Shown in pieces: positions 10,880 to 50,241 of a DNA stretch of 55,779 bases (positions are counted from its first letter, which is position 1; each line of letters opens with the position of its first letter). The notes under the pieces are model-generated. The model was not told the origin of the DNA, did no database searches, and worked only from the letters and a program-made list of their open reading frames with translations. The DNA is taken from contig CAUYUJ010000135.1 in NCBI GenBank assembly GCA_963575745.1, positions 62,001 to 117,779 of the forward strand. Direction: 5' to 3'. Both the position numbers and the translations under genes were made by a program. This stretch comes from Prorocentrum cordatum. Its lineage: Eukaryota.

Positions 10880-10917
<38 letters not shown>

Positions 10918-14804: not shown

Positions 14805-14842
<38 letters not shown>

Positions 14843-16200
14843 CTCCCAGAGCCTTCGGGGCCTCTCCTTGGCCCTCCTACGGAAAATCCTGCAAAACCTA
14901 GCGAATTAGTCGAGACATCCTCGAAATTCCTGCGCGCTGGACGCGGCACGCGCGAGACATCCTCGGAATTCCTGCGCGCGAGTCTTCCTTTGCATCCAAG
15001 TCCTGACCGAACTGATCTGGATCTGAAGCTCGAGCTTCCTGAACACATAGTAGCTGCCCCAGAGCTAATTGACAGGGGGACATGCCAGGAGGACGCGCCG
15101 CGAAACGTCCCCAGGGACGCGCCAGGCGACGTGCCAAGGGACGTGCCATGGGGTCGCACCGTAGGCCGTGCCAAGGGGACGCGCTACGGGACATCCTCAA
15201 AATTCCTGCGCGCGGGACGTGGCACGCGCGAGACATCTTCCGAATTCCTGCGAGCGGGACGTGAAAACAAGCATTTCGCCTGAGACATCCTCTGAATTCT
15301 GGCCCCCCACGAGGCCCCCGCTCGAGACATCCCCAAGTTTGCAGAAACCAGCGTTTCGCTCGAGACATCCTCAACAAATTATGAAAAACAAGCGTTTCGC
15401 TCGAGACATCCGGTCAAAATTCTAAGAAATCCTGACAAAACAAACGAATTAGTCGAGACATCCTCGAAATTCCTGCGCGCGGGACGCGGCCCGCGCGAGA
15501 CATCCTTGGAATTCCCGCGAGCGGGACACGAAAACAAGCATTTCGCCTGAGACATCCTCTGAATTCTGGCCCCCCGCTCGAGACATCTCCAAATTTTGCG
15601 GAAACCAGCGTTTCGCTCGAGACATCCTCCACAAACTATGTAAAATAAGCGTTTCGCTCGAGACATCCTGCCAAAGTTCTAAGAAATCCTGACAAAACAA
15701 GCGAATTAGTCGAGACATCCTCGAAATTCCTGCGCGCGGGACGCGGCACGCGCGAGACATCCTCGGAATTCCTGCGCGCGGGGCGCTTTTCCGAGTCGCG
15801 GTCGGGGCTCCAGACCCCGTTATTTTTCGAGGATTCTGCGAAAAACGCTCCGCACCCTCTTTTTTACGAGGGAAAGCGGGGGTCTGCGGACCCCGTTATT
15901 TATCGAGGATCCGAGATGGGGGGCGAACTTTCCTCGAGCGGGCACGCACAAAACGCACTTTTTCTAAAAAAATCAGCACTTTACCTCGTTATTTATCGCA
16001 AATAATTTCGCCGGCGCTTGACCCGTCAGATCCGGGGGTAAACGGCTAAAAGAGAACCCTGGGCCCGCGCCCTTTCCGGGAAAAAATCAGCACTTTACCT
16101 CGTTATTTATCGCAAATAATTTCGCCGGCGCTTGACCCGTCAGATCCGGGGGTAAACGGCTAAAAGAGAACCCTGGGCCCGCGCCCTTTCCGGGAAAAAA
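5967..16200. repeat. Composite satellite array built from three module types (~420-bp unit; ~40-bp GCGTTTCGCTCGAGACATCC unit; ~80-160-bp GGCTCTAAGATGAGACTTTGTCGTCG unit)
   Basis: Recurrent cores such as gcatccgagtcctgaccgaactgatctggatcttaagctcgagctg (e.g. ~6610, 7028, 8514, 8952, 12802), gcgtttcgctcgagacatcc (many copies in 7660-9665, 11470-11750, 15350-15670) and ggctctaagatgagactttgtcgtcg (9700-10900, 13380-14840). Confidence 0.9.
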
Positions 16201-16565
16201 GAAAACTCCTTCTCGCCCGCAGGTGTGTTAGCATCACAAGACTGACCTCACTCATGCCCAGATCCCCTCCTCTCCCACCATCCAGTATCCCTCACTCGCC
16301 ATCCCCGCTCCCACCCCACCCCTACCGCATGCCCCTCTTCAACCTCACTCCATCCCTCTTCCTCCTCCTCCTCCTGACCCTCCTCCCTTTGCATCCGCCT
16401 CATCCATCACCGATCAATCCGCTTCCTCTCTCCCTCGTGGTCGTCCTTCGCCTCATCATGTGGTTCCTCCTCATCCTCCTCTTCCTCCTCCTCCTCAGCA
16501 TGCTCATGTTTCCCCCGCGTCGTCATCATGTGTTACTTCTGTCTCTAACATCCGCCACCGTGCCT
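9720..16565 (+). repeat. Tandem segmental duplication: ~9720-12529 recurs at ~13640-16565
   Basis: The unique-looking 12160-12529 segment matches 16196-16565 (offset 4036; the ORF track shows the same MPRSPPLPP.. translation twice), and the upstream satellite modules occur in the same order. Confidence 0.9.
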
Positions 16566-32787: not shown

Positions 32788-33930
32788 TCACGAAAGCAAG
32801 TGGAGCACTGACGATTTCTTCTTATCCTTGCCGCTCCCAGCCGCAGCCGCAGCCGCCTGACCGCCGCCGGTCGCCTGGGCGGTGGCGTCAACGGCTACGA
32901 TGGCCGCGGCGATGTGGGCAGCGGCAGCCGACGGCCCGAACAGCTGGTCGATCTGCGTCGGCGGCGCATTGGCGCAGCGGGCCACCCTGCGCTTCACCGC
33001 CACCTCGTCCTGAATCGCCAGGCGGGTCAGCTCCACGAAGCCGGGCCTCGCGTTCTCCTGCACGTTGGAGTCGCCGAGCCGCGCGGGCGAAAGGTAGGTC
33101 ACCTCGCGAGGCCGAGGAGGGCCCTCCTCCCTCAATCGATATTTTCCCTCCCTTCCTCCTCGCTGCCCCCGTTTCCCAGGGGGAGTGAGGTCAGGATGCG
33201 AGGACGAGGAGTCGAGGAGGAGGGGGGAACGCAGGGGCGAGGAAGGCAGGGAAAATATCGATTGAGGGAGGGGGGCCGCGCCTTGATGGTGATGGTCTGG
33301 GCGACGCCCTCGATCCACAAGTAGTCGGGCAACTGGATCGCGCGGTTGCGCACGTGGCCCGTCATCGTGGGGCGCTCGCCGGTCCCGTCAGGAATGGTGC
33401 GAACCAACCAGGCTGGGACAGGGCAATCGGCAGTGATGCTGTCCACCGCCTTCGGGGACGCATACACTCCGAGAGTGAGGCTGTCCCGCTCGTCCTTTGC
33501 ATCGAGCTTCAGGGCGCACACTAGGAAAGACTTGTCACCACGCGACATAGTCACAGGCCCGCAAAAGATCAGGTCCAGGTCACTCTGCATCTCCCCATCC
33601 CTGATCATCAGCACACCCTTCCCCTCGGTCTTGCCCTTTTTCTTAGTAGACTCCTTAGATTCCGCCGAGGGCGGGGACCAGTCGTGGAGCAGCTTGTTGA
33701 TGTTGGCCATATTGGTAGAGTGGAACGCCTGCTTGTACAGTTCGGTCTCAATGTAGCAGCAGAAGAGCTTGAGCCAATACGCAGAAGGGACAACCCCCAC
33801 AGGGAACACCAGCTGGCAGTCGTCGGTCTTGATGGTACCCGCCGCCTGCGACGCCAGGTTGATGTGCGAGTTCGCGGCCAGCGCCAGGTTCTCGGGGTTC
33901 GCGAACCTTGGGAGGCGCGCGCCATGGGAG

Positions 33931-34000
<70 letters not shown>

Positions 34001-34110
34001 TCTCACTCCCCCCTCCCCTCCCTCCCTTTATATTTTTTAATATATCCCCTTACTTCACTCGCTCATCCCCCGCTCCATCTATATAGAGTCTTTGTATCCC
34101 TCATCCTCCA

Positions 34111-34208
<98 letters not shown>

Positions 34209-37200
34209 CCCCCTCCCCTGAGGAGGGAGAGGATGGGTGGATGGGGTGGAGGATTTGAAGAGGAGGAGGACGCTTGCACGCCCGTGAGCCGGTAGACGTC
34301 CTGCAAAGCCATGGCCCGCCCCGCGAACGCAGCCGCCGCAGCATCGGCGGTCGCCTCCGGCGCCTGGGCTGGCGCCTCATCCGCCGCCGCCGCAGCGTCG
34401 GCCAGCGCCAGCGGGGCTGCCGGGGATGCCGCCGCTGACTCCGTGGACGCCGGCGAGGGCTGCTGCTGCGGCTTCGCCAGTCCGTGCGGTGTCGTGATCT
34501 TCGCGACGAGGTCGTCACTGTCATCGCCGTTGTACCTGCCCACCAGGAATGCCTGGTTCGCCTGCACCCACTGGGAGTACGAGAGATGCCCATCCAAGTC
34601 CTGCATGTGGCGGAGATCGGGCACGTGCGAGCGCAGCTTGGTCAGGTCGACCTTGGTAGGGTTCTTGCCGAGCTCGATGAACAGTTCCTGCTCCGTCAAG
34701 ATGTCGTCGAAGGCCAGCATGGTGTACATCGACCGCAGCTTCATGAACGATAGGAGGTCGCCGGCCGTCGCGAAGAAACGCATGGTGCATCCAGGCAGCT
34801 GAGACGTCAGCTTGAGGTACTTTGCGGAGTACTGGCAAAACTTCAGCATCTCTGGCGCGATGACCGCCTGGAGTTTCTCGCGCACGAGTTCGAGCATGCG
34901 CCTCAAGAACTCAGACAGGGCGGATTGGTCGCTCTCTTGGCGGAAGGCTGCATCTAACATCGCGCGCCCCTCCTTGCCGCTGTTGTCCCCGAGCTCGTCG
35001 TAAAGCGCACCGAGCAACGCCCGAAACGCTGGGTGCCGCTTGGCGCTCCGCCCGAGAGCGTTCTCCTTCAGGAAGGTCGATAGCCGGGCGCCAACTTCGA
35101 CCGAGGCGGTGTCAAGCTTCGCCAAGAGGACCGTCTGCTCCGAAGCCTTGATGTCTTCGCTGCTTCCTGCTCCGCCCGCGAGATTGGCCAAAGTGGTCCT
35201 GAGGGCGTCCCCAACCGATTGCTCGGCCTTGTTGGGATCGCCGTCGTCGCCGAGGGCACCCACGCGGCTCAGGGCGGTCGCGGCGGCGATGTCCCTGAGC
35301 TTGGGCCGCAACTCCGACCACTTCTCGTACACTGTCTTGCCCAGGCGCACCTTCGTCTCGAAGCAGAACTCGGCGGCGGGCGGCATCAACTGCTTGAAGA
35401 TATCCATCTGGTCCTTATCGGACAAAGGGCAGTCCGACATGGCCGACATGATGCAAGAAATCGCATCCAAGAGCCACACCTTGTGCTGGTCCATGTTGTC
35501 CGGGTCGAAGTCGGACTTGGGCTTTGCCCTCGGCTTCGGCTTGGCCTTCGGCACCGGCCTCGGCACCGCCAGCTTGGGCTGCGGCACGGGGGCAGCGCCA
35601 GTGCCAGTTGTGACGGCCGGCGGCGTCGTCGTCGCGGCCGCCGCTGCCCGCTCCGCCGCCGCCACTCTCTCGGCCTCCTTCTCCGCTGCCTTCTTCGCAG
35701 CCTCGATGCCGCGCCGCACCACGACGCTCTCCCCCATTGGAGTGGTCAGCCACTTGCACATATCGAGCTTGATCTTGTCGAAGATGAAGACGGGCGCCCT
35801 GGACCCATCCTCGGGCGGGGTCACCGGCACGCACATCGGGAGGACGATGAACCAGACGGCCTTCAGGATCTCGATATCGATGACGGCGCGCACGCCCTCG
35901 TGGAAAATTGACACCGAAAGGTGGTGAAGGTTGAACACCGCCATAGCGTTGTCCATCCGCTTGTCGTGGAATTTGCCGCGGCGGCCGAGGAACTCAAAGG
36001 TCTGGTCCCTGACGCCCCAGCGCTTGAGGGCGTTCAGGAGAGCCTGGGCTGAGACGACGCCCTCAAAGAAGGAAGGACGCCTTCCTCCTCCTCCTCCTCA
36101 TCCTCCTCTTCCTCCTCAGGGATTCCTCCTCCTCCTCTCGGACCAGGCCTTGAGATCCAAACGGCCTTCCTTGCGAAGGCCGTCGACCCCTCGAGATACT
36201 GAGATACTCCTCCTCACCTGTCCTCTCATCCGTCCTCCATCCGCAATCAATCGCGGGGCCCGCAAGGGCCCCCAAGGGCCCCGAAAACATTCGAGGGATG
36301 GGCGCGCTTGGCCCGATGTCCTGGGCCGAGATCAGCTCGTTGTGACTCTTCACCCGCCTGTCCCGCTCCTCGTAATTCTCGCAGAGCCACTCGTACACGT
36401 TCAGGTCGGTCCCCATGATCGCCTTGGCAGCCTTGTGCTCGGCGATGTAGGTGCGCACAGCCTCGAAGTACTGTAGCAGCGTAAAGGCCGACCCCCCATG
36501 AAAGTTATTGTGAAAGTCGCGAAGCCAGTTGATCACGTCGGGCGGCGTGTCAGCGTAGAAAACCGTCATGTTTGAAAGCCCCTTCTTAAGGGTGTGCTTC
36601 ACCATGTGATTTTTCGGGTCTTCCTCAGCTGCTTTGTAGACGGCCTGGCTCAGAGTGTTGTAGGTTACCATCAAGTACGGGAGTTTCCCGCCGGGCGAAA
36701 AGAGAGCCCAGGGCTCGCCGCGCACCCCCTGGACGGCGCCGTCGATTTTGACGCCATCGGCGTAATCCCTGACGACGCTGTCCTGGCGCCTCTTGTTGAG
36801 CGGATGCGGCTCCATCGTTTTCTGGCCGCCCTCGGTGAAGAATTTCACGCCATTGATGTTCCTATAGCCTGGAACGGCGAAGTCGTCCAGCACCTGGTCC
36901 AGCAATGCTGCGCCCTGCAGACCTGGATACCGCTCATTGATAGTGCCCATCGGGCGGAACTTGTCATCCCTAGAGACCTTCTTCGACTTCTTGGCCGCCG
37001 CGCTGGGGCCCGCGCCGGCGTCGGAGCCCACGTCGGAATCAGACATGAGGCGGAGGGAGAGGGGGAGGAGAAGGAGAAGGAGGGGGGAAGGAGAAGGAGG
37101 GGGGAAGGATGAGGAAGGCAGACCTCTGGGTATCGCCGACCTCCGACACGCCCGCGGCCGACTCGGACTCGTCGTCGTCGGTGGTGTGATTGGAGGACTT

Positions 37201-37452
37201 CCTGCGGCGCCGAGCGGCTTGCTGCTCCTTCTTGGCGACCTTACGTTGCTTCCCCGACTTGGCGCCCTTCGGCTGCGGCGGCTCCTGCCGATCCTGCCCC
37301 CGCGCGCGCTTCGGCCGATGGCCCAGCGCGCCCGTGGCAGACGGGTGGGGGCCGCTCGAGACGTCGACCCAGTCGATGCCCGTTGCCCGCGCGGCTCGCT
37401 TCCTCGAAGTGGGGTGCGGCAGGGCAGGCGACTCCGAATCCGAAGAGGACAT
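32788..37452 (-). CDS. ~1234-aa hypothetical protein with a possible N-proximal ParB/Srx-like domain; exons 37452-37124, 37002-36321, 36043-34290, 33906-33282, 33102-32788
   Basis: Five exons join in frame through GT/GA/GC/GC donors and AG acceptors (3705 nt, stop at 32788). [43 protein letters not shown] resembles the ParB-N/sulfiredoxin pattern but lacks the GxxR motif. An alternative start (MSDSD) lies at 37046. The gene model is better supported than the domain call. Confidence 0.7.
33103..33281 (-). mobile_element. 179-bp GC-AG intron with 39-bp subterminal inverted repeats (introner/MITE-like)
   Basis: 33120-33158 vs 33239-33277 are 37/39 reverse complementary; removing the intron joins TITIK|VTYLSP in phase 0. 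Confidence 0.7.
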
Positions 37453-37850
37453 GGCGGCGCCCGGCACAGGCGAGTCCGCGGTGCTGTAGGTCGGTGTCGG
37501 ACCAGAAGATGAGAGGCGCTCACTTGCAATGTCGAAGTTGAAGCCACAAACAGCTGGTAGCGATGAGGCGACGAGCGATCGGCGATCGCAGTTATGGCAA
37601 AACGAAGCGGACTGAGGAGGAGCCCATGAGGCGAGGAGATGGATGAGATGGATGCGTGCGAGCCGATCCCCAATCAGGGCTTGCAGCAGTTGCTTCTCGC
37701 ACATGCGTTGGCTTTAGCTGTAAGGGGTCCTGCATTCGCCGTGCGAGCTCGGTTTCGAAGACAAAGACTTCGCATCGCAACAACACGATGAACTTTTCGG
37801 GGGTTCCCAGGGTCCTTCGACCGACGGACAGAATTAGTTTGTTTCGAACG

Positions 37851-38135
37851 ATCCCCACCATCCTCCTGTGCTGTGTGTTCTGTTGTGCTGTTCTGTGAAT
37901 GCGCGGTTCTGTCATGTAATGTCATGCTCTGTTCTGTCCTGTCATGTTCTGTTCTGTCATGTGGTGTCGGTGTTCTAACTTGGGGTCTGGCGGCCGCGGT
38001 ATGCAGGCGGGTGAGGTGGGATTCTCGGGACATTCGGGGATTCTCGGGACAACTTGGGGTCTGGCGGCCGCGGTATGCAGGGTGGGGGTGTGGCCGGGGG
38101 GCCTGTTCTAAGAAATCTATCAACCCTTGTCGGGT
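37851..38135 (+). repeat. Dispersed repeat shared with 52079-52625
   Basis: Same motif order in both copies: atccccaccatcctcctgtgctgt, (TGTTC/TGTCA)n, ggattctcgggacaacttggggtctggcggccgcggtatgcagg, gttctaagaaatct. Confidence 0.9.
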
Positions 38136-38986
38136 GGAGAAAAAAGATCGAGCTCCTGAGCTGGCCCCTCTGGAGTACAGCCCACTGCCCTGCCGAATAC
38201 CTTCTTAGCTCCTCTCATCCTCCACCTCCCCTCCCAGGCACCTCCCCGCGAGCGGGCGCACCGCGCGTGGGCGGTGGCGGCGCGGGGCTGTCCCCGGGCC
38301 CCATCGCGGCCGCATCCTCGCTCGCCGGCGCCACGCCCAGGCCGTTGGCGAGCACGACGTCCTGGCGGCGGCGGCGGATGGGGACCCCCCCGCGGTGCGC
38401 CTCGCCATCCTGATCCTGATCATCTCCTCGCTCACATCCTCTCGCCTCCAATCTCCTCCTCGTCCTCAGGTCTTCCCCATCCTAGTCCACGAGCGTCGCT
38501 GTCGGTCATGCCCCCTCCTCTCCCCAGCATCTCCCCCTCCTCCTCCTCGGGGCGAGAGGCGCAGACACCGCGAGCAGGATAGGATAAAGGGAAAGGGGAG
38601 GACAAGAAGAGGAGAGGGAGGGCGGAACGCAAGTCGAGGAGCAATGGAGGGCACGGGTCCGACCTTTTGCAGTCGTGTGCGGCCGCTAGGCCGATCGAGA
38701 AGACTCCCCCAGTCGCCGTGCGGCGCGTCTTGCACGCACCGCGCGCAGACTGAGGCAGACTGAGGCATAAGAGAGCACGCTATCAGAGAGCAGCCAGAGG
38801 CAGATACGCGCGCGTGCACGCACGTTCGGATGAGCGCATTTGTATCACGCGTGCACCCCCTTCCCCCCCCCTGCATCGCGCACACGCATCGCACGCAGCG
38901 CACGCAGCAGCATGCGTGATCACGATATCCACTGGCGCCTGCGGCTGTACACCCGCGGGACACCGTCGGACAGCGTCGACCAGAAA

Positions 38987-41900
38987 CTAAACAAAACGCA
39001 GCAGTGGGTCCTGATCAGCCCTCTTCACCTCAGCTAGGACGTAGAGCCAATGCACCCCGCACACATGAAGATTCATGCTGTTCCCGAATTGCTGCATGAC
39101 CTGGGCTCGCTGGCGCGGGCGCGCCCGATTAAACGAGCTCAGGGCCCGGCTGGGCCCGCGCGGCGTGGCAAGATCCTCCCTCACGGGGAAGCCCTGCGCA
39201 GCCCCGAGCTCGAACGGCGTGAGCCAGCGCTGGATCGCATCGTACCAGATCACCTGCGGATTGCGAATCACCGCGCTGAGGAAGCACTCAGTGCTTGACC
39301 AACCCCTGTCTTTCTTCGCGTCCTGACTCAAGTTGTGGCACACGAACGGCGTCGGCGAGCCCCTCTGGTACTCTCGGAGGTTCTCCAGCTCCCACGTGGT
39401 GAGGCTGTCCAGAAACGCTCGGCTTGAAGGGATGAGGTCCGCGTCTGTCACCGGCACGCCGCGAGCACGACTCAAAGGCCGATTGCGGGCCCACTCCAGC
39501 TCCGCCTTGAGCTCGGCAGCATCGGCGATGCAGAACTGATCCAGCGTGCACCGAAGGGTCCGATAGAAGAGGGGGATCGTGTTGGCCAAGGTGCTGCGAG
39601 CCTAGGCGCATGCCGCAATCTCGGCATCGAGTCGGCATCGGTCGTCGATCGTCGATCGTCTGAGCCTAATCGGGATCTGATCGGGGAGGAGGTCCGATCT
39701 ACGTGGGCCGAGCCCAATCGGTCGATTCAAAAACAGAAGACGGCACCTCCATGACGAAGGTCTTGTGCAGGAGGAGCGTGAAACGACGCTGGCGTCGGAC
39801 TGGCCAGCCGAACTCGGGCGGCTCCACGACGTGGCTGAAGATGATGTAGGTCTTGCCCAGCAACTGCCGAAGAATCTCCACATCAAAGCGATGTGAGTTT
39901 TCGTGCAGCACCACTACTTCCTGCAGCACGAGGCGAAGGGCCGCCCAGATTGCCAACAGGCACGAACTCTGGCCATCCGCCCCCTCGTTGGTGCCAATGG
40001 GGGCCCAATCTGGGCACGGAGTCCCCGCCCAATGCACCTTGCCCGTCGGGTGAGAGCACCAGCCCCGGCACCGGGCGCAACGCGCGAACGTCCGCACGGG
40101 CCGCGAGGACGACTGCGGGTGCCTCGCTTCCTTCACGATCGCCACCAGGTCCTTCAGCGTGACGCCGTGTTCGCTAGCAAGCAGCTTCGTGATGCTGGCC
40201 TTCATCTCAGGCTGCCAGAAGTCCATGATGTCGGTGAACATGTGCTCCGGGAGGCTGTGCGGCAGGTGGGCGAGCTCCTTGTTCGCCTCTGGCGCGATCT
40301 CAATGGAGCACAGGTGGCGCATGGGGCGAACGGGCTCGCCCAGGATATCCTCCAGACTTGCCGCGAGCACAGCTCCTGCCGTCCCCGGCGCGTCTATGCC
40401 GGTGAAAGCCGTCGTGTAGGTCGCGTCGTGGATGGCCCGCTTGACGTCGTATAGCAGCGATGTGCCATGCGTGGCAGCCAGCGCGCGAAGGCCGTCGTGA
40501 GCCCAGCTGAAAATATCCTTGGTGTTCCTGACGACTGGCTTCGACCACTCCCCCAGACTCGGCAATGCTGCCCGTGGCACGGGGGCGGGGGGCGGCGACG
40601 GGGACCGCGCTCGGACCAGATCCACCGGCGTTGCCACGTATGACCCCAAGGGCAAGCTGCTTGCCTGCGACTCCGATGTGCCGCCCGTCGCGGCGCCATG
40701 TGGGTCATCGCTCGTGGCGACGGCGGCGTCTGCGTCTGCATCAGCTGCTTCCTGCTCAGCCTCGCCCCACACGCCGCGCCACAGAGCCGCATCGGCATCG
40801 TCGGCATCAGCTGCCTCGTGCCCGAACTCGGGCGGATCGGGCTCCTCGATCCCGAACGCCGCGCGGAGCTCAGCCGCTGCGTCCAAGAGCCCAATCGGAG
40901 CTCCTTCAGTCTCGCTGGTCTCGCTTAGCGCGAGGCAGCTGTTGGCGCCGCTGCGGCGAAGCTGCGGCGCCGCAGTCTCGTGCGGCTCGCCCGCGTCGCT
41001 GAGCTCCTGCACGGCCGCGTCCTCGGGCATTGGGGGGTCCTCCCAATCGCCGGGGCACGCTTCCCCGCGCCACTGATGCGCCCGCGCCCAGCCAATCCAG
41101 CAGGCCCGCTTGCTGGCCTCGTCGGAGGAGCAGCCGTGGGCGCAGTGATTGGCCCAGGCAGCCCGCCAGAGCCTAAGGTCCTCGGCCGTCACTTGCAGGG
41201 GCAGGGCGAGCGGCGCCCCGCGCGGGCTGCGGCTGCGGCTGCGGCTGCGGGCGCCCGCCCGCGAGGGCGACGGCGATGCGCACTCCAGGAGGCCGAGTGC
41301 CGCACCAAGCTGGTCCACGACCATTGCCGCGTCGAGCCCGTCGCCGAGCGGGGTCGCGGTCCCCGCGGTCGGCGGCGCAGGCTCTGCCACCAGGACTAGG
41401 GCTGCTGCGCTCTCCGCGGGCGCTGCCGCCGCAGCGACGCTGTCAGGCTGGGCCGAGGACGGCGGCGCTTCCTCAGCTTGCTCCATCGCCGGGGCTGAGG
41501 CGGCGCTCGCAGCGGGCACCGTCGCCACGTCGAGGTCGCCGGGCGGGGCCGCGGGCGGCGGCGTCTGATCCGTCGCAGGGGCTGTGGACCCTGGGGCTGC
41601 TGCGCCGTCTGCGGGCGGGGCTGCGGGCTGCGGCGCATGCTCAGGCGCCGGGGCGGGGTATTCCCTCCCCGCGGGCGCCATCGCAGCATCGAAGCTGTCG
41701 GGCGGCGGGGATACACGTGGCGGCACAGGATCCGTCGTCAGGGCTGAGGCTGCGCTCTCCTCAGGCGCCGTCGCCGTCACGGCGTCGCCGGGCGGGGCCG
41801 GTGGCAAGCGCTCCGTCGTTGGGGTGGGGGCTGCACTCTCCCCAGGTGCCGTCGTCGTCGCAGCATCGTCAAGGAGTGATGGCGCAGCCTCCGTCGTTGG

Positions 41901-42959
41901 GGCTGGGTCTGCGCTCTCCTCAGGCGCAGTCGCCGTCGCAGCGGGCGGCGGTGCAATCGTCGGGGCTGGGGCTGTGCTCTCCTCAGCAGGCGGCGTCTCC
42001 GTCGCAGCATCGCGGTCACCCGGAGGGGCTGGGTCTACGCTCCCCACGGGCGCCGTCGCAGCATCGACGCTGCGGGGCGGCGGTGCGAGCGGTGGCACAG
42101 GCTCCGCGGCCGGGGCGGAGGTGGCATTCTCAGTCGGCGCCGCCGCCGTCGCGGCATCCGCGCCATCAGGCGGGGCTGCGAGCGGCAGCGAGTGTTCCGT
42201 CGTCGGAGTTGCAGTCTCCCCTGGCGCACCCGTCGTCGCACCCTCGCTGTCGCCTGGCGGGGCATCCGTCGCCTGAGCTGGTGCTGCGTTCTCAGCAGGC
42301 GTCGCCGCCGACACCGCATCGCCGGCATCGGGCGGGGCTGCGGGCGGCGGCGCTGGCTCCGTCTCCGGAGCTGGGGCTGGGCTCGCAGCAGGCGTCGTCG
42401 CAGCAAGGCCGTCGGGCGGGCCCGCGCACGGTGGCGCCAGCTCTGTCGCCGTCGCAGCGTCGATGTCACCAGGCGGCGTTGTGGACGGGGTCCCTGGCAC
42501 CGGCGCAGGGGGCGCTGGCTCAGCAGCGAGGGGCTCGGCCAAGGCAGCGGACGGCGGTGCCACCGCAGCGGTGGTTGCAGCGCCATTCCCAGCGGGCAAT
42601 GGCGCCGCAGCGTCGCTGCGAGCCTGGGCACTGGCAGTGGGCTCGGGCTCGGATGCCACAGCGGTCGCCGCCGGCAGCGGTGGCGGCTCCAGCTCATCAA
42701 CGCTGGGCGTCGCGGCGGCGGGCGGGTGCGCGGCCGGCTGCACCGGCGGCGCGCCCGGGCCCGGCTGCGTCACGGGCGGGGCCCGGGCTGGCGGCCCAGT
42801 CGGCCGGCTACGCTTCCGCGCTGGTGACGTGGCGCCCGCGGCGCCCGGCACAGGTGACCCCGACGGCGTCGCGCGGCGGAGCAGCCCGCGCACGTCCCTG
42901 GAGCCGGTCGGCGCAGGTGGTTCGCGCTGGCGCCGCGCGGGCGGCCGCGCGGGCGGCAT
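38987..42959 (-). CDS. C5-cytosine DNA methyltransferase (~1275 aa) with a long Ala/Pro/Thr-rich N-terminus; exons 42959-39747 and 39601-38987
   Basis: Ordered C5-MTase motifs: I AFTGID, II SIEI, III TDIMDF, IV AGTPC (catalytic PC), VI HENS, VIII PVRRQRRF; then, after a 145-bp phase-0 GT-AG intron, IX RWLTPFELGAAQGFP and X FGNSM. Confidence 0.9.
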
Positions 42960-43012
42960 CGACACAGCACAGGCGATCACGGGCAACTGTATGTGATACG
43001 GAACACGCACTG

Positions 43013-43034
43013 CTTAAGCCCAAATGGCTACGGA
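43013..43034 (-). other. Relic dinoflagellate spliced leader upstream of the methyltransferase
   Basis: Minus strand TCCGTAGCCATTTGGGCTTAAG is a 20/22 match to DinoSL and ends 53 nt before the ATG at 42959. Confidence 0.88.
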
Positions 43035-43329: not shown

Positions 43330-44985
43330 CAGGAGGCGCATCCTGGATCGCAGGAGGGATGGCATGGATCCCAGGAGGGAGGTCCTGGCCCGCAAGAGGC
43401 AGGTCCTGGATCCCGGGAGGGGGGTCCTGGATCCCAGGAGCGGGGTCCTCGATCGCAGGAGGCAGGTCCTGGATCCCAGGCGACGAGGCACGGTCCCAGG
43501 AGGTGGATCCCGAATCCGAGGAGGCACGTCCTGTATCCCAAAGGGAGGGGGCATTGCTCCCAGGAAGGAGGTCCTGGAGCACGCGCGGATGACCCTCGAT
43601 CGCAGGAGGCGGGTCCTGGAACCCAGGAGGCGGATCCTGGATCCCAGAGGGATGGCTGCGGGCCCCAGGAATCAGATCCTGGCTCCCAGGAGGTGGATCC
43701 TGGATCCCAGGAGTGGGGGTGGGGGGCCAGGAGGGAGGTCCTCGATCCCACGGGGCAGGGCATCGCTCCCAGGAGGCAGGTCCTGGATCCCGGGAGGGGG
43801 CGGGCTGGCTAGCAGGAGGCGGGTCCTGGATTCCAGGAGGGAGGGGGGGGTGTGTGGGGGCTGGAGCCCAGGAGAGCGCGCAGGAGCCAGGAGGCGGATC
43901 CTGGATCGACGGATGGCGGTGTTGGGATCAGGAGGGACGTCCTGGAACCCACGTGGCGGATACTCGATCGCGGGAAGCAGGGCATGGATCCCAGGAGGTG
44001 GCTCCCGAAGCCCGGCAGGTGATGCCCGAATCCCAGGAGGCGGGTCCTGGGTCCCAGGAGTGGAGGGGGGGGGTACCAGGAAGGCGGTCCTGGATCCCAC
44101 CATGAATGCCCTCGCGCACATGAAGCAGTTCCTGGATCAAGGGGGCAGGTCCTGGATCCCGGGAGGGGGGTCCTGGATCCCAGGAGCGGGGTCCTCGATC
44201 GCAGGAGGTAGGTCCTGGATCCCAGGGGACGAGGCATGGTCCCAGGCGGTGGATCCCGATTCCCAGGAGGCCCGTCCTGGATCTCAGGAGGGGATGCCAT
44301 GGGTCATAGGAAGGAGGTCCTGGATCGCAAGCGGGTGGCCCTCGATCGCAGGAGGCGGGTCATGTGACCCAGGAGGTGGCTCCTGAAGTCCAGATGGGAG
44401 GCCGTGGGTCCCAGGAAGCAGGTCCTGGCCCCCAGGAGGCGGGTCCTGGATCCCAGGAGCGGGTGGGGAGGGGGTGGGCGGGAGGGGGGAGGGGATTCCT
44501 GGATCCCACGGGGTCGGGCATCGCTCCCAGGAGGCGGGTCCTGGTTCCCTGGCTGGGGGTGGGCTGGATATCAGGAGGCAGGTCATGGATTCCAGGGGGG
44601 GGGGATGGGCCCCCGAGGTCGCGCGGGAGGCAGGTCCTGGATCACAGGAGGTGGGGTCGTGGATCCCCGAAGTGCGTCCTGGGCCAATGCGATATGCCAG
44701 CGCCCCCGGGAGGCAGCTCCCGAATCCCATGAGGGAGGTCCTGGATCCCAGGAGCGTGGAGATAGATCCCTGGAGGCGGGTCCTGAATCCCAGGAGGCGG
44801 ATCCTGGATCAGGGGGGGGGGGGGGGAGGTGGGGAGGGCGGTGGCTCGGTCTCCACGCGCGTGGCATGATGGGCACCCTGGCTCCCAGGAAAGGGGTCCT
44901 AACTCCCAGGAGGGGCGTCCTGGATCGCATGAGGTAGGCCATGGATCCCAGGAGGCGGGTCCCCTGGGCGACGTGGATCCAGGAA
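43330..44985. repeat. ~21-bp minisatellite with quasi-palindromic core CCTGGATCCCAGG
   Basis: Dozens of diverged ggtcctggatcccaggagg units; a higher-order copy is visible (~43398-43620 vs ~44146-44370). Confidence 0.92.
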
Positions 44986-45598: not shown

Positions 45599-47629
45599 TT
45601 ACTCATGCAAATCAGGGGGCATCTCCGCGCGGCCGATCATCCACGCGCGACACATGCCACAGAGCAGATCCCAGTTGTTGTGGGCGAAGACATCGAATAT
45701 CCCCGTGAAGAGCTCATCGCAATCAGACGGTCGGGGGGGCAGCCTACCTGTGGTCTCCAGCGCCGCCGCGTGGTCGTTGGCGCATGCGGGGTGCATGGAC
45801 AAGAGGCACAGCCCACACTCTCGCACGCCAGCGCCAGCCCGTTCATCGGCGTCGCCGCACACTTGGCACGCCACGAACGCATCAAGAGGCCCCAAGCCAG
45901 CGTGCTCCACCATGCGCGCTGTCCTGGGGCGCGGCCGCGACTCCCTCCCCCTACCCACCGGCGCCCCAGCGTCCCGCGGCACAGAACATATCTAACAGAA
46001 GTGCGCGGCACAACGGGCTTCAAGCCAGCTCTATCCACGGGCCCTTCTGGATAGAGCTGACTTGGGGCCCTCTTGGAGCCCCTTGGGGCCGTCTTGGGGG
46101 CCCTCGCGGGGCAATGTTTGGAACCATCTTGGGGCCCAAACGGGCCCCAGAAGGGCCTGACCATATCTTAATTTGGTCAGGCCTTCTTATGGGCCTCGTC
46201 GGGGCCCTCTTGGAGCCCTCTTGGGGCCCTCTTGGGGCCCTCTTGGGCCCCGCTTAAGGGCCTCTGGGATTTCTCGGGGCCCTATGGGGCCTTCTCGGGG
46301 CCCTCTTGGCCCCTTCCCAAGGCCCTCGGAGCGGCCCAAGAGGGCCCCCAAGACGGCTCCAAGAAGGCCCCACGAAGGGGCACCCCAAAAATAAAATATG
46401 TCTTGGGTGCACCCGCGCCTCCGACCACTCACGCCCCTCGCTCTGGTCCGCAACTGCAGTGCATATACAGGGTCGGTCGAGGAATAGAGGAGAGGGGGGA
46501 GCGGAGGTGATCCAGTGGTCGAGCCCGGCCCGCTCCTGAGCGCCGCCGGCGGTACTGCGGTCCGCCCGGGCCCCCTTGCCCGCGAGACGGACTCTCCAAT
46601 GGTAGGTAGCACCGGAACTGCACTATGCAAATCGAGAGCAGGGAAAAAACTTGGAGTTGGGTAGACGGCTCGCCCACTCTCCAATCGAATCAGTCGGCCC
46701 GTCCGAGCAGTCGTGTCGACCCAGTGGACGAATCTGGCCGCTGGCCCCATGTCGTGCTCGGGGGGGATCCACACGAGCGATATATCAGGCACATCTGCAG
46801 CCCGCCTCCTGACCCCGCCGACGGGGGCACTGGCGCCAGCCACGACCCCGCGGAGGCACGCCAGCCCCTCTCCAGCCCCAGCTGCCCACTCAGTAGCAAG
46901 GAAGGCTAAGTCGGGGAGGTCAGCGTCGCCACCAGCATCTTCGTCGGGCTGACCATGGGGTAGATCAGAGGCAGGGGCAGGGGCTGCTGCTACTGCTGCT
47001 GCTGCGCCGTCGCCGTCGCCAGTCACCGCGGGGCCACCGCCGCCGGCGCTGCCCGACCCAGCCCCTCCGCTAGGGGGCCCCAATTGAACCCTACCCCTAC
47101 CCCCCACCACGATTTCTGAAGGGGAGGGTGGGCGGGAGCTCCCGAACGAAGTGAACCCCACCCTCCCCCTTAGCAATCGTAGGGAGTGGGTGGGGGGGGG
47201 CGGGGGTAGGGTTCACCTGTGGCCCCCTATCCGCCTCCACCGCCTGCTGGCAGCAAGTCTGCTACATCGGCTGCCAGGGCTGAGTTGAGCGCCGCCTCCT
47301 TCTCTAATTGGTCAGGGTGCACGTCCGTCCCCCAACCCGCATTCAAGTAACGCAGCGTTCCAATCGAACTTCCCTGTGAACGCTGACCCCCCTCCGGCCC
47401 CTGCGCCTCTCCTGTGCCCGGCGCCCGCCCCCGCTCCGGAGGCCTGGCCAGCGGCAGCGCGTGCAGCAATGCGGGCTGCCTCCGCCTTCTCCGCCAGCGC
47501 CGCGTCGACGCCCTCCTCGACGTCGACGCGCTCGGCCTGGCGGGGCGCGCGGGGCGGGGGGGAGGTGGAGCTCGACGGCGGGCATCTTAGAATACCACAG
47601 GCACCGAAAGCGTCAGAAAGTGAAGATCT

Positions 47630-47661
<32 letters not shown>

Positions 47662-50241
47662 GATGTAACACAATATCACGAGGGAAGCCGTTTCGAGAGG
47701 AGTCTGGGGCACGTTTCTCGGGCAATGTGTCTGGCGCACAAAAGCCCCGCGAAATGTCGAGAGGGCCCCGGGAGGTCCCCCAGGGTCAAGATACCTGGCC
47801 CAGAAAAGCACCAAGGGCCCAGGAAAGGGAAATTGGGGCCCAGGAAAGGGCCCCAGGTCATAACTGCAAAAACAATGTCCAGAGGGTGGATCGTTTCGAA
47901 GCGAGAGCGAGAGCGGCGGCGGGGGCGGAGGGGGGCCCGGGGGAGGGGCAGCAAGTGAAGTAGCGGGGCGATATAGAGAGTGCACAAGAGGGGGCGTGAA
48001 GGAGGAGGACGAAAGATGCTGCCGCTGCCCTCGTGATCGTCCTCGCCTCCCTCATCCTACTCCTCGTGCCCCTCAGCCCCTCTCCCCCCGTCGTCTTCAT
48101 CATCTACCGCTCGCCCCCTGATCATAAATCGCCGCATTGCCAAATGCACCATGTAGTTCCAACGACCGAGTACAATGCGCGCGTTGCGCTACTGCGTTAC
48201 TGGTTACACGGCACGCAACCCACAGAACGCAACAGAGGTAGCGAAGCAGCCTCGTCCTCATCGATGCCTCTGGCCACGAAGGCGCCGTGGAGCTCCTCGA
48301 GGATGTCAGGGTCGTACTCGTAAGCCTCATCGCCCTCCTCGTTGCCGGGGGCGGCATCCTCGTCCTCCAGCGGGACAGCCGCCTCGCCACCAGCGCCTCT
48401 GCCTCTGCCGCGGCCACGGCCGCGTCCGCGGCCCTCTCCCTTGCCACTGCCGCCCGCGCGGGGCTTGCGCGGCGGTACGTCCGACGATTTCAGCGTCATC
48501 ACAATCTCGGCATCACCCAACTTGATATACCCGAGTGGGCCCAAGCCGTCACCGGGCTCGTCGGCGTCGCCGGCGTCGCTGTCGTCGTCGCGAACGTCAC
48601 CGCTGAGGCTCCACATCCAATCGATCGTGTGCCTAAAGATGTGCATCGTGTGGCACAAACGGACGTCGTCGCGAACGTCGAAGAGGTAATCAGGGGACGT
48701 GACGAATCGCAGCGGCTTGACCAGTCGAATCAGACGGGTACCGTCGTCACCGGCCACGACGACACGTGCAACAGCAAAGGTGGTGGTCGTATGATTCTTC
48801 TCGGCGGGTAGGAAGACATCATAGCCCAACCGCAGCGTGCAGTCTGCACCCGATCTGGACAGGCAAATCCCACAATTGATTCGAGGCGTAACTTTATGCA
48901 ACCGTATGTGGTACCACCCTAAGATCGCCTGCTCGAACAAGGGGAGTCGACTCACGGCCGTCGGATCGAGTTTCACGCCCTCGGCAATCGAGACGTGGAC
49001 GTCTGCTGGGGGAGGGTCCATCCACCGGGTCGCGTCGGTCAAGATCGAATCTCGGTCACTGGACATCATACACATCTGAAGCAGTCGTGCGGCTCGTGGC
49101 CGTACAGATGACCACTTATGGCGAAGTCCTCGAGTGCCGAGCCCGAGGGCTTTCTTGACCTGAACGCGTGCCGAAAGTAATGGCAGCTTGATGCCTCTGC
49201 ACTGGTCGGCGATGTGTTTCGTCAGTGAATTCACGCCCTCACACTCTTGTATATCACTGTACACATGCACTCTCAAGACTTGAATGAATGTCCAAAGCTC
49301 GCGCGTGCAAAAACCAGTCCGAGCAGCAAACTCAATGTCAGCCTTATACGCATCACGCACCTTGAAAGTGGAATGCTCCAGCTCGTCGGCCTCCAGGACC
49401 AGCAGCGCGGTAGCAATTCCTGCGCCACACCACCACGCGGCCACGGGAAGCAAGCGTTGCAAACAGCATGCCTGCCTCAAGCTGCAATCTATCCAACGCA
49501 ACGTGCTCCATGCCAGTACGGCATACCACCATGGCCACATCACTATCTCGCATCAGCATCCCGCTCCTCGCACTCCCCCCGCCCGCCCTGAGCCCCCTTG
49601 CCCTCCTCCTACTCCTCTCCCTCCTCCTCACCCCCAGCCGCATATCCACATCCGCTCCCTCGCGCCCCCGTGCCGGCGCGCCGAGCGGATCGGGCTGGCG
49701 GGGGCGCGTTTGCGACGCCCGCAGAACACGCCGTAGTGCTCGCGGGCAAACCAGAACAGCAGGTAGGGCCACCTAGGAGCGCGCGAAGGCGCGGTAGGGA
49801 CGGGCGATCGCAGGACCCGTAGCGAGATTGAGGAGGAATGAGGGCCAATAGTGCAGAGGGCCGTCAGAGGAGGAATCAGGCGGGCCAGGCAAGGGGCGGC
49901 AGCGGAAGGGAGCGGAGGCGGCGGCGCCTCAACAGCTCGTTCACCACCCTGCGGAAGAAGGAGGCGCCGGCGTGCAGGAACTCCTGGAGGACGGGCGCCC
50001 ATCCCGCCCGCCTCTCCTCGCCCCCCCTCCCCGCCCCCCGTATCCTCCCTCCCTCCTCCTCACCGTCATACCTCGCCCTCCACTCCGCCCTCCCCTCCTC
50101 GCCCTGTCCTCACATGCCTCCTCCCTCATCTCCCCATCCCACCGCGCTTCCCGTCGTCGCCGCCGCCGTCGGGCGGGGGCCCCGTGGGGGAGGGGGGGGG
50201 GGAGGGAGGAGATAGAGAGAGACGGACGAAGATGGAGGATG

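What the first reader, a model, noticed from the sequence alone, without database searches (positions are those of the whole stretch)
38987..42959. Apparently intact C5 DNA methyltransferase as transposon cargo
Motifs I, IV (PC), VI, VIII, IX and X are present in order with no stops once one 145-bp intron is removed. A Cys-rich segment (CARCRGWCSH) lies just before motif IV, and motif VI reads ENS rather than ENV. Inference: the enzyme could methylate the element to mimic host DNA, regulate its transposase, or spread methylation at insertion sites.
Basis: partly seen in the sequence, partly recalled or inferred. Interest (0 to 1): 0.82.

Follow-up and report, generated by a model that had tools for sequence, protein, structure and literature searches.

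The report
Intact dinoflagellate DNMT5-like methyltransferase retrogene
This is an intact, two-exon gene for a divergent cytosine-5 DNA methyltransferase of the dinoflagellate DNMT5-like kind that was copied into place from a messenger RNA, and nothing shows that it rides in a transposon.

Summary
On the minus strand, 42959-39747 plus 39601-38990 give a 1,275-residue protein once a 145-bp GT..AG intron is removed. Motifs I, IV (PC), VI (ENS), VIII, IX and X stand in order. An NCBI Prorocentrum cordatum protein matches the spliced translation at 758 of 758 residues and uses the same splice.

Pfam PF00145 is the top hit but below its cut-off (17.9 against 22 bits). Family evidence is strong: 1,474 related cluster representatives, and a model with pLDDT mostly above 90 from residue 300 on. 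Its best structural and profile match is Cryptococcus DNMT5 (Z 29.1; E 2.3e-14).

The protein has no SNF2 ATPase. It keeps the canonical motif I Phe and the Pro-Cys that DNMT5 has replaced, and it carries a conserved C-x2-[H/C]-x3-C-x7-H knuckle before the catalytic loop.

"Transposon cargo" is not supported. None of 134 other window ORFs and none of 30 longer relatives has a transposase, reverse transcriptase or integrase domain, and no terminal repeats flank the gene.

A relict spliced leader (19 of 21 bases) sits 53 nt upstream of the first ATG. That marks a processed-mRNA retrocopy, which is common in dinoflagellates. This is an ordinary new member of a known kind.

The parts
43013..43034 (-). 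Relict dinoflagellate spliced leader (DinoSL), 22 nt; 19 of the 21 searched bases match.
   Evidence: 2 mismatches, and none of 100 shuffles gave a match. Sequence read. The canonical DinoSL sequence and the retrogene criterion come from PMC5585692.
42960..43012 (-). 53-nt 5' leader between the relict spliced leader and the first ATG. It contains no ATG.
   Evidence: Read directly.
39747..42959 (-). Exon 1 coding sequence, 1,071 codons from the first ATG.
40542..42959 (-). N-terminal 806 residues: Ala 25%, Pro 19%, with imperfect 63- and 81-nt repeats. No Pfam domain, modelled as disordered, and not conserved in a paralogue.
   Evidence: In the part modelled (from protein residue 505), pLDDT is under 50 over most of this region. 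The paralogue P0156 aligns only from KPVVRN onward. GC1/2/3 in 41451-42959 is 0.80/0.77/0.74, so there is no codon bias there.
39747..40541 (-). N-terminal half of the methyltransferase domain: motifs I, II, knuckle, IV, VI, VIII.
   Evidence: HMM 12-274, 300.9 bits. GC3 is 0.81 against GC2 0.47. Motif coordinates.
40032..40079 (-). Cys/His knuckle C961-x2-C964-x3-C968-x7-H976, directly before motif IV. Inferred to bind zinc.
   Evidence: C in 58 of 58; H 38 or C 18 of 58; C in 57 of 58; H in 53 of 58; the pattern occurs in 135 of 151 relatives.
40005..40031 (-). Motif IV WAGTPCPDW with the catalytic Cys982.
   Evidence: It aligns to C440 of Cryptococcus DNMT5.
39602..39746 (-). 145-nt GT..AG intron.
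   Evidence: No other copy in the window and no terminal inverted repeats.
38990..39601 (-). Exon 2 coding sequence, 204 codons: target-recognition region and motifs IX and X.
   Evidence: (HMM 269-470, 162.2 bits).
39317..39334 (-). NLSQDA. It aligns with the flip-out loop S667-Q668-N669 of Cryptococcus DNMT5, which reads the hemimethylated CpG.
   Evidence: Profile alignment, with a 29-residue numbering offset checked against S439/C440 and R520. Residue roles come from passages of bioRxiv 10.1101/2021.10.01.462825. In the family, L is present in 50 of 55, Q in 51 of 55, and N or D in 44 of 55.
38987..38989 (-). TAG stop codon.
   Evidence: The tail VKRADQ matches VRRADQ in relatives P0010 and P0011, so the open frame's own stop is the natural end.

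Best explanation
This is a nuclear gene of the dinoflagellate Prorocentrum cordatum. It encodes a stand-alone S-adenosylmethionine-dependent cytosine-5 DNA methyltransferase. The protein belongs to a very large dinoflagellate family whose catalytic and target-recognition domains are closest to DNMT5, but which lacks DNMT5's RING and SNF2 ATPase parts. It probably corresponds to the 'Dnmt5 paralogues without other domains' / 'DNMT5c' kind already reported in dinoflagellates.

Shown: the two-exon structure, all catalytic motifs, the fold, the family and the relict spliced leader.

Inferred, mechanism:
- Cys982 attacks C6 of a flipped-out cytosine.
- Glu1020 protonates N3, and Arg1056/Arg1058 hold the base.
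- The DNMT5-like loop LSQD reads a CpG.
- The enzyme works without an ATPase, because it keeps the canonical motif I Phe852 and Pro981-Cys982. DNMT5 has replaced both to become ATP-gated.
- The conserved C/C/C/H knuckle next to the catalytic loop binds zinc and braces that loop.

Inferred, origin: this copy arose by reverse transcription and reinsertion of a spliced-leader-capped mRNA. It is a retrogene, not a passenger of a transposon.
For: Identity and organism. P0154 (NCBI, P. cordatum) equals the spliced translation at 758 of 758 residues. A second copy, P0003, on another contig differs at 4 of 758.

Family. phmmer with the 290-residue exon-1 part found 1,474 representatives at E <= 0.001, of which 461 were at E <= 1e-10. 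The window's protein keeps the majority residue at 57 of the 63 conserved domain columns, and all 7 invariant columns are kept.

Superfamily. PF00145 matches 16 of 30 aligned relatives at E <= 0.01. Among 30 longer relatives it matches 20 at E <= 0.001, and 17 of those reach 22 bits.

Fold. In the AlphaFold2 model, the ten-residue pLDDT means from residue 301 on are 86-98, and 45 of 46 blocks are at 90 or more.
- Foldseek's top four PDB hits are all Cryptococcus DNMT5 (E 9.4e-16 to 1.0e-14), followed by M.HhaI at 1.1e-10.
- VIA-align gives DNMT5 Z 29.1 with 378 residues aligned, M.HhaI Z 27.6 with 291, and DNMT3 and DNMT1 about 20.
- The family profile against PDB sequences gives DNMT5 E 2.3e-14, aligned from motif IV through the recognition domain to motif X. 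M.HhaI follows at 1.2e-09, aligned on motifs IV-VIII only.

No ATPase. No SNF2 or RING domain appears in this protein or in any of 30 longer relatives.

Canonical cofactor pocket. Phe is present in 53 of 58 relatives and Pro before the catalytic Cys in 48 of 58. CnDNMT5 has a small residue and Ser439 at these places, which its authors link to autoinhibition.

Retrogene. The relict DinoSL lies 54-75 nt upstream of the first ATG. This meets the criterion of PMC5585692.

Coding signal. GC3 is 0.78-0.81 against GC2 0.47-0.49 in the domain exons.
Against: - No RNA evidence could be obtained, so splicing and expression rest on homology and on a gene model.
- PF00145 is below its curated cut-off for this protein.
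- Single-sequence searches of the PDB found nothing.
- The link to published DNMT5c sequences was not tested at the sequence level. Published DNMT5c proteins have their domain after 1,000-2,000 residues, whereas most close relatives here have short N-termini.
- Hoguin et al. say DNMT5 enzymes carry a serine substitution, but this family mostly has Pro-Cys.
- DNMT6 has no solved structure, so it could not be excluded by fold.
- A retrocopy that carries an intron is atypical.
- No poly(A) remnant was seen downstream.
- The repeat-rich part 41451-42959 shows no codon-position bias.
- Catalytic activity, CpG specificity and zinc binding are untested.
Confidence: 0.72

Rival explanations
1. The gene is cargo of a mobile element (a DNA transposon, or a LINE/DIRS-type retrotransposon as in Symbiodinium) and serves that element.
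For: - Retrotransposon-borne DNMTs exist in other dinoflagellates (PMC5890265).
- A near-identical second copy lies on another contig.
- The gene has only one intron.
- Neighbouring minus-strand ORFs (36066-37673, 34082-36097, 48200-49552, 51123-51971) have coding-like GC3 but no recognisable family.
- A 75-85% identical dispersed repeat lies at 37839-38141 and 52069-52631.
Against: - None of 134 other ORFs has a transposase, reverse transcriptase, RNase H, endonuclease or recombinase domain.
- No terminal inverted or long terminal repeats bracket the gene.
- None of 30 longer relatives has a transposon-type domain.
- Only two annotated copies fall in the 90% identity cluster.
- The gene's own 5' end carries a relict spliced leader, which explains the duplication without an element.
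- CpG observed/expected is 0.95-0.96 in the domain exons, so the depletion reported for SymbioLINE-Dnmt is absent.
Confidence: 0.07
2. The locus is a silent or decaying retrocopy: intact by youth, not by selection.
For: - It carries a relict spliced leader.
- No RNA run was available.
- The repeat-rich N-terminal part lacks codon bias.
- A 99.5% identical sister copy suggests recent duplication.
Against: - The frame of 1,275 codons is open.
- All invariant family residues are kept.
- Only 1 of the 4 differences from the sister copy lies in the catalytic domain.
- Retrogenes with conserved spliced-leader relicts 50-100 nt upstream of the ATG are commonly retained and expressed in dinoflagellates (PMC5585692).
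Confidence: 0.14
3. The protein has the C5-MTase fold but acts on another substrate (RNA, as DNMT2 does, or a modified base), or has a non-catalytic role.
For: - DNMT2 shows that this fold can switch to tRNA (cited).
- Dinoflagellate DNA is rich in 5-hydroxymethyluracil (abstracts listed).
- Activity was not tested.
Against: - The recognition domain aligns with that of DNMT5, a DNA CpG enzyme, including the SQ[N/D] loop.
- DNMT2 chains score lower (Z 20-23.4; E 1.3e-05 and weaker).
- CG methylation is pervasive in Symbiodinium genomes and is attributed there to Dnmt5/Dnmt6 paralogues.
Confidence: 0.07

Closest known systems
Cryptococcus neoformans DNMT5 (PDB 7r76, 7r77, 7r78, 7t02)
   Same: It is the best match by profile (E 2.3e-14), by Foldseek (E 9.4e-16) and by VIA-align (Z 29.1, 378 residues). 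The match covers both the catalytic core and the recognition domain. The flip-out loop SQN aligns with LSQD.
   Different: - This protein has no RING fingers and no SNF2 ATPase.
- It keeps the motif I Phe and the Pro-Cys, where DNMT5 has a small residue and Ser-Cys.
- It has an extra segment with a C/C/C/H knuckle before motif IV. The profile aligned nothing in DNMT5 to that segment: about 17 DNMT5 residues lie unaligned there against about 50 profile positions.
- It has an 806-residue Ala/Pro-rich N-terminus.
Dinoflagellate DNMT5c (Hoguin et al. 2023, PMC9998398) and the Symbiodinium 'Dnmt5 paralogues' without other domains (de Mendoza et al. 2018, PMC5890265)
   Same: - It is restricted to dinoflagellates and has a DNMT5-like domain.
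- It has no SNF2 and a long N-terminus without known domains.
- Prorocentrum minimum CCMP1329 is listed with one DNMT5c and no other DNMT class.
- There are many paralogues per genome: the peer-review file mentions 11 Dnmt5 genes in S. kawagutii.
   Different: - Sequence-level identity with the published entries was not tested, because their sequences were not on hand.
- Listed DNMT5c domains start after 1,000-2,000 residues, while most relatives found here have N-termini of 0-540 residues.
SymbioLINE-Dnmt and SymbioDIRS-Dnmt3 (retrotransposon DNMTs of Symbiodinium)
   Same: It is a dinoflagellate C5-MTase that has multiplied through an RNA intermediate.
   Different: Those elements are intronless. 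They lie next to, or are fused with, reverse transcriptase, endonuclease or tyrosine recombinase, and they have target-site duplications or LTRs. None of these features is present here.
M.HhaI and other bacterial C5 methyltransferases
   Same: It shares the same core fold and motif order (Z 27.6), with canonical Phe in motif I and Pro-Cys in motif IV.
   Different: Only 291 residues align. The recognition domain is not shared: the profile alignment stops after motif VIII.
Dinoflagellate retrogenes tagged by relict DinoSL (Song et al. 2017, PMC5585692)
   Same: The relict lies within 500 nt upstream of the ORF, in the -50 to -100 zone. It retains the TTTG motif.
   Different: One intron is present. 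No parent gene was identified here.

Membership tests
C5 cytosine methyltransferase superfamily (PF00145) | Motifs I (FxGxG-like), IV (PC), VI (ENV), VIII (RxR), IX and X in this order | tested here: met
   The motifs read AFTGIDAPG, GTPC, HENS, RRQRR, RWLTPFELGAAQGFPV and GNSMN. ENS is a family variant.
C5 cytosine methyltransferase superfamily (PF00145) | Pfam gathering score of 22 bits | tested here: not met
   The spliced model scores 17.9 bits, E 0.0023. Of 30 longer relatives, 17 do reach 22 bits.
C5 cytosine methyltransferase superfamily (PF00145) | C5-MTase fold | tested here: met
   Model pLDDT block means are 86-98 from residue 301 on. Z is 19-29 to DNMT5, M.HhaI, DNMT2, DNMT3 and DNMT1.
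DNMT5 (fungal/algal, ATP-dependent maintenance enzyme) | Catalytic and recognition domains closest to DNMT5 | tested here: met
   DNMT5 ranks first in all three comparisons. No DNMT6 structure exists for comparison.
DNMT5 (fungal/algal, ATP-dependent maintenance enzyme) | C-terminal RING plus SNF2 ATPase | tested here: not met
   The frame stops 27 residues after motif X. No SNF2 or RING domain was found by Pfam in this protein or in any of 30 relatives.
DNMT5 (fungal/algal, ATP-dependent maintenance enzyme) | Ser for Pro in the PC dipeptide and a small residue for the motif I aromatic | tested here: not met
   This protein has Pro981-Cys982 and Phe852. In the family, Pro is present in 48 of 58 and Phe in 53 of 58.
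DNMT5c (Hoguin et al. 2023) | Dinoflagellate origin, no SNF2, long N-terminus without domains | tested here: met
   The definition was read.
DNMT5c (Hoguin et al. 2023) | Clusters with the published DNMT5c sequences | not tested
   Only identifiers and domain coordinates were available. No sequences were on hand.
Retrotransposon DNMT (SymbioLINE-Dnmt / SymbioDIRS-Dnmt3) | Adjacent or fused reverse transcriptase, endonuclease or tyrosine recombinase | tested here: not met
   No such domain was found in any of 134 other ORFs at E <= 0.01.
Retrotransposon DNMT (SymbioLINE-Dnmt / SymbioDIRS-Dnmt3) | LTRs or target-site duplications; intronless | tested here: not met
   No bracketing direct repeats were found. 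One intron is present. Short target-site duplications could not be assessed without element ends.
DNA transposon with cargo | Transposase gene and terminal inverted repeats enclosing the cargo | tested here: not met
   A transposase of an undescribed family cannot be excluded.
Dinoflagellate retrogene | Relict DinoSL within 500 nt upstream of the ORF | tested here: met
   19 of 21 bases match at 43013-43033, and none of 100 shuffles matched.
Dinoflagellate retrogene | Identified parent gene with more introns | not testable with these tools
   No genome is held for this window. The look-up of contigs that encode the paralogues is closed.

The most novel reading that the evidence does not exclude
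The gene represents a huge, mostly unnamed clade found across dinoflagellates: DNMT5-derived enzymes that have shed the SNF2 ATPase. They keep, or have regained, a canonical cofactor pocket. They have gained a zinc knuckle (C-x2-[H/C]-x3-C-x7-H) that braces the catalytic loop in place of ATP-driven remodelling. They multiply by mRNA retroposition. Such enzymes would be the main writers of the near-complete CG methylation of dinoflagellate genomes, and about a third of them escape Pfam-based surveys.
Probability: 0.3. Interest if true: 0.55.

Novelty: new member of a known kind. Interest (0 to 1): 0.3.

Why it matters
The gene gives a name and a likely function to a P. cordatum protein that is so far annotated only as "unnamed protein product".

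It also shows why surveys that rely on the Pfam cut-off can undercount dinoflagellate DNMTs. This protein, and 13 of 30 longer relatives, fall below 22 bits.

The contrast with Cryptococcus DNMT5 suggests a testable idea of how a DNMT5-type domain can work without its ATPase. The recognition loop is shared, but here the Phe and Pro-Cys are canonical, there is no SNF2, and an extra Cys/His knuckle is present.

The finding does not add a new case of a transposon that carries a methyltransferase.

Tried and rejected
- RNA evidence: no RNA holder was listed for 38800-41000.
- Whole genome: none is held for this window. Copy number, flanks of the second copy and the parent gene could not be examined.
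- Single-sequence PDB searches. The exon-1 part gave 0 hits at E <= 10. P0004 gave one hit to an unrelated protein, a coatomer subunit, at E 2.5. Only the family profile worked.
- Related loci. The 58-sequence alignment was too divergent for the pattern scan. P0165 in metagenome contigs gave 21 pattern matches, none confirmed. P0154 in viral contigs gave nothing.
- Neighbouring ORFs. 51123-51971 (longer proteins only) and 36066-37673 (residues 205-500; proteins of 294-938 aa) gave no homologue at E <= 0.001. The protein atlas gave only weak leads: potyvirus and flexivirus coat families at 0.90-0.92 with low recognition for 36066-37055, and nothing above 0.75 for 34250-36097.
- Introner idea for the 145-nt intron: no second copy in the window and no terminal inverted repeats.
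- Poly(A) remnant downstream of the stop: none seen by eye in 37550-38995.
- CpG depletion as a sign of self-methylation: observed/expected is 0.95-0.96 in the domain exons and 0.94 for the window.
- Viral origin. Giant-virus DNMTs in BFVD match at E 1.9e-13 to 1.7e-12, weaker than DNMT5. This is not decisive.
- Earlier findings of this scan: three look-ups returned nothing.
- Supplements of PMC9998398. Files 18, 19 and 21 were read or searched. Files 13-17, 20, 22 and 23 were not searched and might hold the DNMT5c sequences or alignment. bioRxiv supplements (Figure S7 of the DNMT5 structure preprint) could not be seen.
Full report
**What is there.** Two minus-strand open frames, 39699..43013 and 38987..39601, are joined in frame when 39746..39602 is removed. 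That stretch is 145 nt, starts GT and ends AG, and the join reads ...FVME|ARSTLANT.... From the first ATG at 42959 the coding sequence is 1,071 + 204 = 1,275 codons and ends at a TAG at 38989-38987.
- motif I: AFTGIDAPG, residues 851-859
- Cys-rich CARCRGWCSH: from residue 961
- motif IV: WAGTPCPDW, 977-985
- motif VI: LHENS, 1018-1022
- motif VIII: GWPVRRQRRF, 1051-1060
- motif IX: RWLTPFELGAAQGFPV, 1196-1211
- motif X: QQFGNSMN, 1241-1248

Without splicing, exon 1 runs into a stop after 19 more codons, and motifs IX and X are lost.

**Is the splice real?** No RNA run was listed, so the evidence is comparative.
- A stored NCBI protein from Prorocentrum cordatum (P0154, 758 aa, "partial") equals the spliced translation at 758 of 758 positions. 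A second P. cordatum protein on another contig (P0003) differs at 4 of 758. These are gene models.
- I built an HMM from 55 aligned relatives, leaving out the P. cordatum models, and ran it over the six frames of the window. It hit frame -1 at 40544-39732 (profile 12-274, 300.9 bits) and frame -2 at 39604-38987 (profile 269-470, 162.2 bits). The two halves abut on the profile, and there is no other copy in the window.
- The annotated model stops 13 residues short of the frame's own stop. The read-through tail VKRADQ matches VRRADQ in relatives P0010 and P0011, so the natural end is the TAG.

**Is it a C5 methyltransferase?** Pfam alone is equivocal. PF00145 is the top family, but it scores 13.3 bits for exon 1, nothing for exon 2, and 17.9 bits (E 0.0023) for the spliced model, against a cut-off of 22. 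Single-sequence searches of the PDB found nothing useful. The family-level evidence is strong.
- phmmer with the 290-residue exon-1 domain part found 1,474 cluster representatives at E <= 0.001, 461 at E <= 1e-10 and 20 at E <= 1e-30.
- PF00145 matches 16 of 30 aligned relatives at E <= 0.01. Among 30 longer relatives it matches 20 at E <= 0.001, and 17 of them reach 22 bits.
- A profile of 30 relatives hits PDB sequences of Cryptococcus neoformans DNMT5 at E 2.3e-14, aligned from motif IV through the recognition domain to motif X. M.HhaI follows at 1.2e-09 (motifs IV-VIII only), then HaeIII, DNMT2 and DNMT1. No DNMT3 sequence was listed at E <= 1.
- In an AlphaFold2 model of P0154 built with a 58-sequence alignment, the ten-residue pLDDT means from residue 301 on are 86-98, and 45 of 46 blocks are at 90 or more. 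Most of the N-terminal part is below 50.
- Foldseek's four best PDB matches are all DNMT5 (E 9.4e-16 to 1.0e-14), followed by M.HhaI at 1.1e-10.
- VIA-align gives DNMT5 Z 29.1 (rmsd 2.9, 378 residues aligned), M.HhaI Z 27.6 (291 aligned), DNMT2 20-23.4, and DNMT3 and DNMT1 about 20.
- Giant-virus DNMTs in BFVD match at E 1.9e-13 to 1.7e-12.

**State of this copy.** Apart from the start Met, 63 alignment columns have one residue in at least 75% of the sequences. The window's protein carries the majority residue at 57 of them, and all 7 invariant columns are kept. The six departures are T for S (twice), S for A, A for S, G for L, and S in ENS; the last position varies across the family. In the domain exons GC3 is 0.78-0.81 against GC2 0.47-0.49. 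The gene is therefore intact by every sequence test I could apply.

**What kind of DNMT?** The domain is DNMT5-like, but the protein is not a DNMT5 in the strict sense. There is no RING or SNF2 ATPase here or in any of 30 longer relatives, none of which has any Pfam domain other than PF00145. The preprint on the DNMT5 structure (bioRxiv 10.1101/2021.10.01.462825; passages read) states that DNMT5 replaces the motif I aromatic residue with a small one and the Pro of Pro-Cys with Ser439. The authors link these changes to a closed cofactor pocket that the ATPase must remodel.

This family keeps Phe in 53 of 58 relatives and Pro in 48 of 58. In the 151 best representatives, Pro is present in 113 of the 135 that match the knuckle pattern. 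That fits an enzyme that works on its own; this step is inferred.

The profile alignment places the family's L-x-Q-[N/D]-P on DNMT5's flip-out loop S667-Q668-N669, which reads the hemimethylated CpG. In the family L is present in 50 of 55, Q in 51 of 55, and N or D in 44 of 55; this protein reads LSQDA. I checked the 29-residue numbering offset on S439/C440 and R520. A CpG target is therefore likely but untested.

**The Cys-rich segment.**
- Cys in 58 of 58
- then two residues, then His (38) or Cys (18) of 58
- then three residues, then Cys in 57 of 58
- then seven residues, then His in 53 of 58
- then five residues, then the catalytic Cys

A regular expression for this pattern matches 135 of 151 top representatives, with His at the fourth place in 122 of those 135. 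Most of the 12 printed misses (those with a recognisable motif IV) differ only in spacing. The His/Cys interchange at one position is typical of a metal ligand. The model puts the segment in three short strands. The profile aligned nothing in Cryptococcus DNMT5 to this segment: about 17 DNMT5 residues lie unaligned there against about 50 profile positions. I read it as a zinc knuckle that braces the catalytic loop. This is inferred, because I could not inspect the model's coordinates.

**Relation to published classes.** De Mendoza et al. 2018 (PMC5890265; passages; peer-review file) report that Symbiodinium and other dinoflagellates express several Dnmt5 and Dnmt6 paralogues that mostly lack other domains (11 Dnmt5 genes in S. 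kawagutii). Hoguin et al. 2023 (PMC9998398; passages; Supplementary Data 1, 2 and 4) define a dinoflagellate-specific DNMT5c. It lacks SNF2 and has a long N-terminus without domains. They list Prorocentrum minimum CCMP1329 with one DNMT5c and no other class.

This gene fits that description: its 806-residue N-terminus is Ala 25% and Pro 19% and has no Pfam hit. Three things keep the assignment provisional.
- I could not compare sequences.
- Listed DNMT5c domains start after 1,000-2,000 residues, while most relatives found here have shorter N-termini.
- Hoguin et al. mention a serine substitution in DNMT5 enzymes that this family mostly lacks.

DNMT6 has no solved structure and was not excluded.

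**Transposon cargo?** I found nothing to support it.
- Pfam scans gave only sub-threshold hits to unrelated families, several of them on low-complexity stretches, and no transposase, reverse transcriptase, RNase H, endonuclease or recombinase. The scans covered 48 ORFs of 220 aa or more, and 86 ORFs of 70-219 aa chosen for sequence entropy above 3.85. ORFs of lower complexity or shorter than 70 aa were dropped.
- Repeat searches of 28000-50000 and a self-comparison of the whole window show only microsatellites, a 21-nt satellite and one 75-85% identical dispersed repeat (37839-38141 and 52069-52631). There are no terminal inverted or long terminal repeats around the gene.
- The 90% identity cluster holds just two annotated P. 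cordatum copies and one short environmental fragment.
- CpG observed/expected is 0.95-0.96 in the domain exons.
- Neighbouring minus-strand ORFs look coding by GC3 but have no detectable relatives. An undescribed element therefore cannot be ruled out entirely.

**What does explain the look of the locus.** A 21-base search for the dinoflagellate spliced leader found two sites, where none of 100 shuffles gave any. One of them matches 19 of 21 bases at 43013-43033 on the minus strand, preceded by T at 43034. It lies immediately 5' of the open frame and 53 nt before the first ATG, and that leader contains no earlier ATG. Song et al. 2017 (PMC5585692, passages) use exactly such relicts, within 500 nt upstream of an ORF, as the tag of retroposed genes. 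They find them at more than 20% of Symbiodinium genes, best conserved 50-100 nt upstream of the start codon.

So this copy descends from a processed, spliced-leader-capped mRNA. That accounts for a 3.2-kb first exon without introns and for the near-identical second copy. The one remaining intron is unexplained: I found no sign that it is an introner and no poly(A) remnant downstream.

**Verdict.** The transposon-cargo reading is not supported and is replaced by a relict-leader retrogene of a host gene family. The gene is a new member of a known kind. The zinc-knuckle pattern and the canonical cofactor pocket in an ATPase-less DNMT5-type domain are the only features with some novelty, and both need experiments.

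Noticed in passing
window 19430-19451 (+): An exact 22-nt dinoflagellate spliced-leader sequence follows a long CCT/TCC microsatellite. It is not followed by GT, so it looks like a second relict leader in front of another retroposed gene (ORF 19255-20472 on the + strand), not a leader RNA gene.
   Followed up: partly
window 43330-44464, continuing to about 44980: A 21-nt satellite (consensus CAGGAGGCGGGTCCTGGATCC, about 54 copies, 60% matches) starts about 300 nt upstream of the relict leader. Each unit contains the inverted pair CAGGA/TCCTG. CpG observed/expected is only 0.51 here.
   Followed up: no
window 37839-38141 and 52069-52631: A dispersed repeat of 75-85% identity, itself tandemly duplicated at 52267-52555. 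The copies lie on either side of the gene, about 14 kb apart. It is too short and too diverged to call an LTR.
   Followed up: partly
window 33135-37673 (-): Three long minus-strand ORFs (33135-34049, 34082-36097, 36066-37673) have coding-like GC3 (0.72-0.82) but no Pfam family. No homologue was found in the one search run, on 36066-37673 (residues 205-500; proteins of 294-938 aa); the other two were not searched for homologues. The atlas gave only weak leads to plant-virus coat protein families for 36066-37055.
   Followed up: partly
window 45602-45991, 48200-49552, 51123-51971 (-): These are further orphan ORFs upstream of the gene. One has a PHD-like C-x2-C...C-x2-C...H-x2-C pattern. One has a D...C-x2-H arrangement that, from recall only, resembles hAT transposases. 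Neither has Pfam support, and no longer homologue of 51123-51971 was found.
   Followed up: partly
window 5965-16565: A large block of nested tandem and dispersed repeats, with units of about 420 nt and about 160 nt and a 2.5-kb duplication (9675-12164 against 13611-16086, 93% identical).
   Followed up: no
proteins P0005 and P0006 (EukProt, labelled Pyramimonas sp. CCMP1952): These fragments are 60-61% identical to this dinoflagellate protein. P0005 shares a 90% identity cluster with a P. cordatum protein (P0156), which suggests dinoflagellate contamination of that green-alga transcriptome.
   Followed up: no
window 41100-41260 (-), protein residues about 590-640: This Cys/His-rich stretch (WANHCAHGC...CWIGWARAHQWRGEAC) lies in the otherwise disordered N-terminus. 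It is modelled as two helices with pLDDT of about 54-58 and is not conserved in the paralogue P0156.
   Followed up: no
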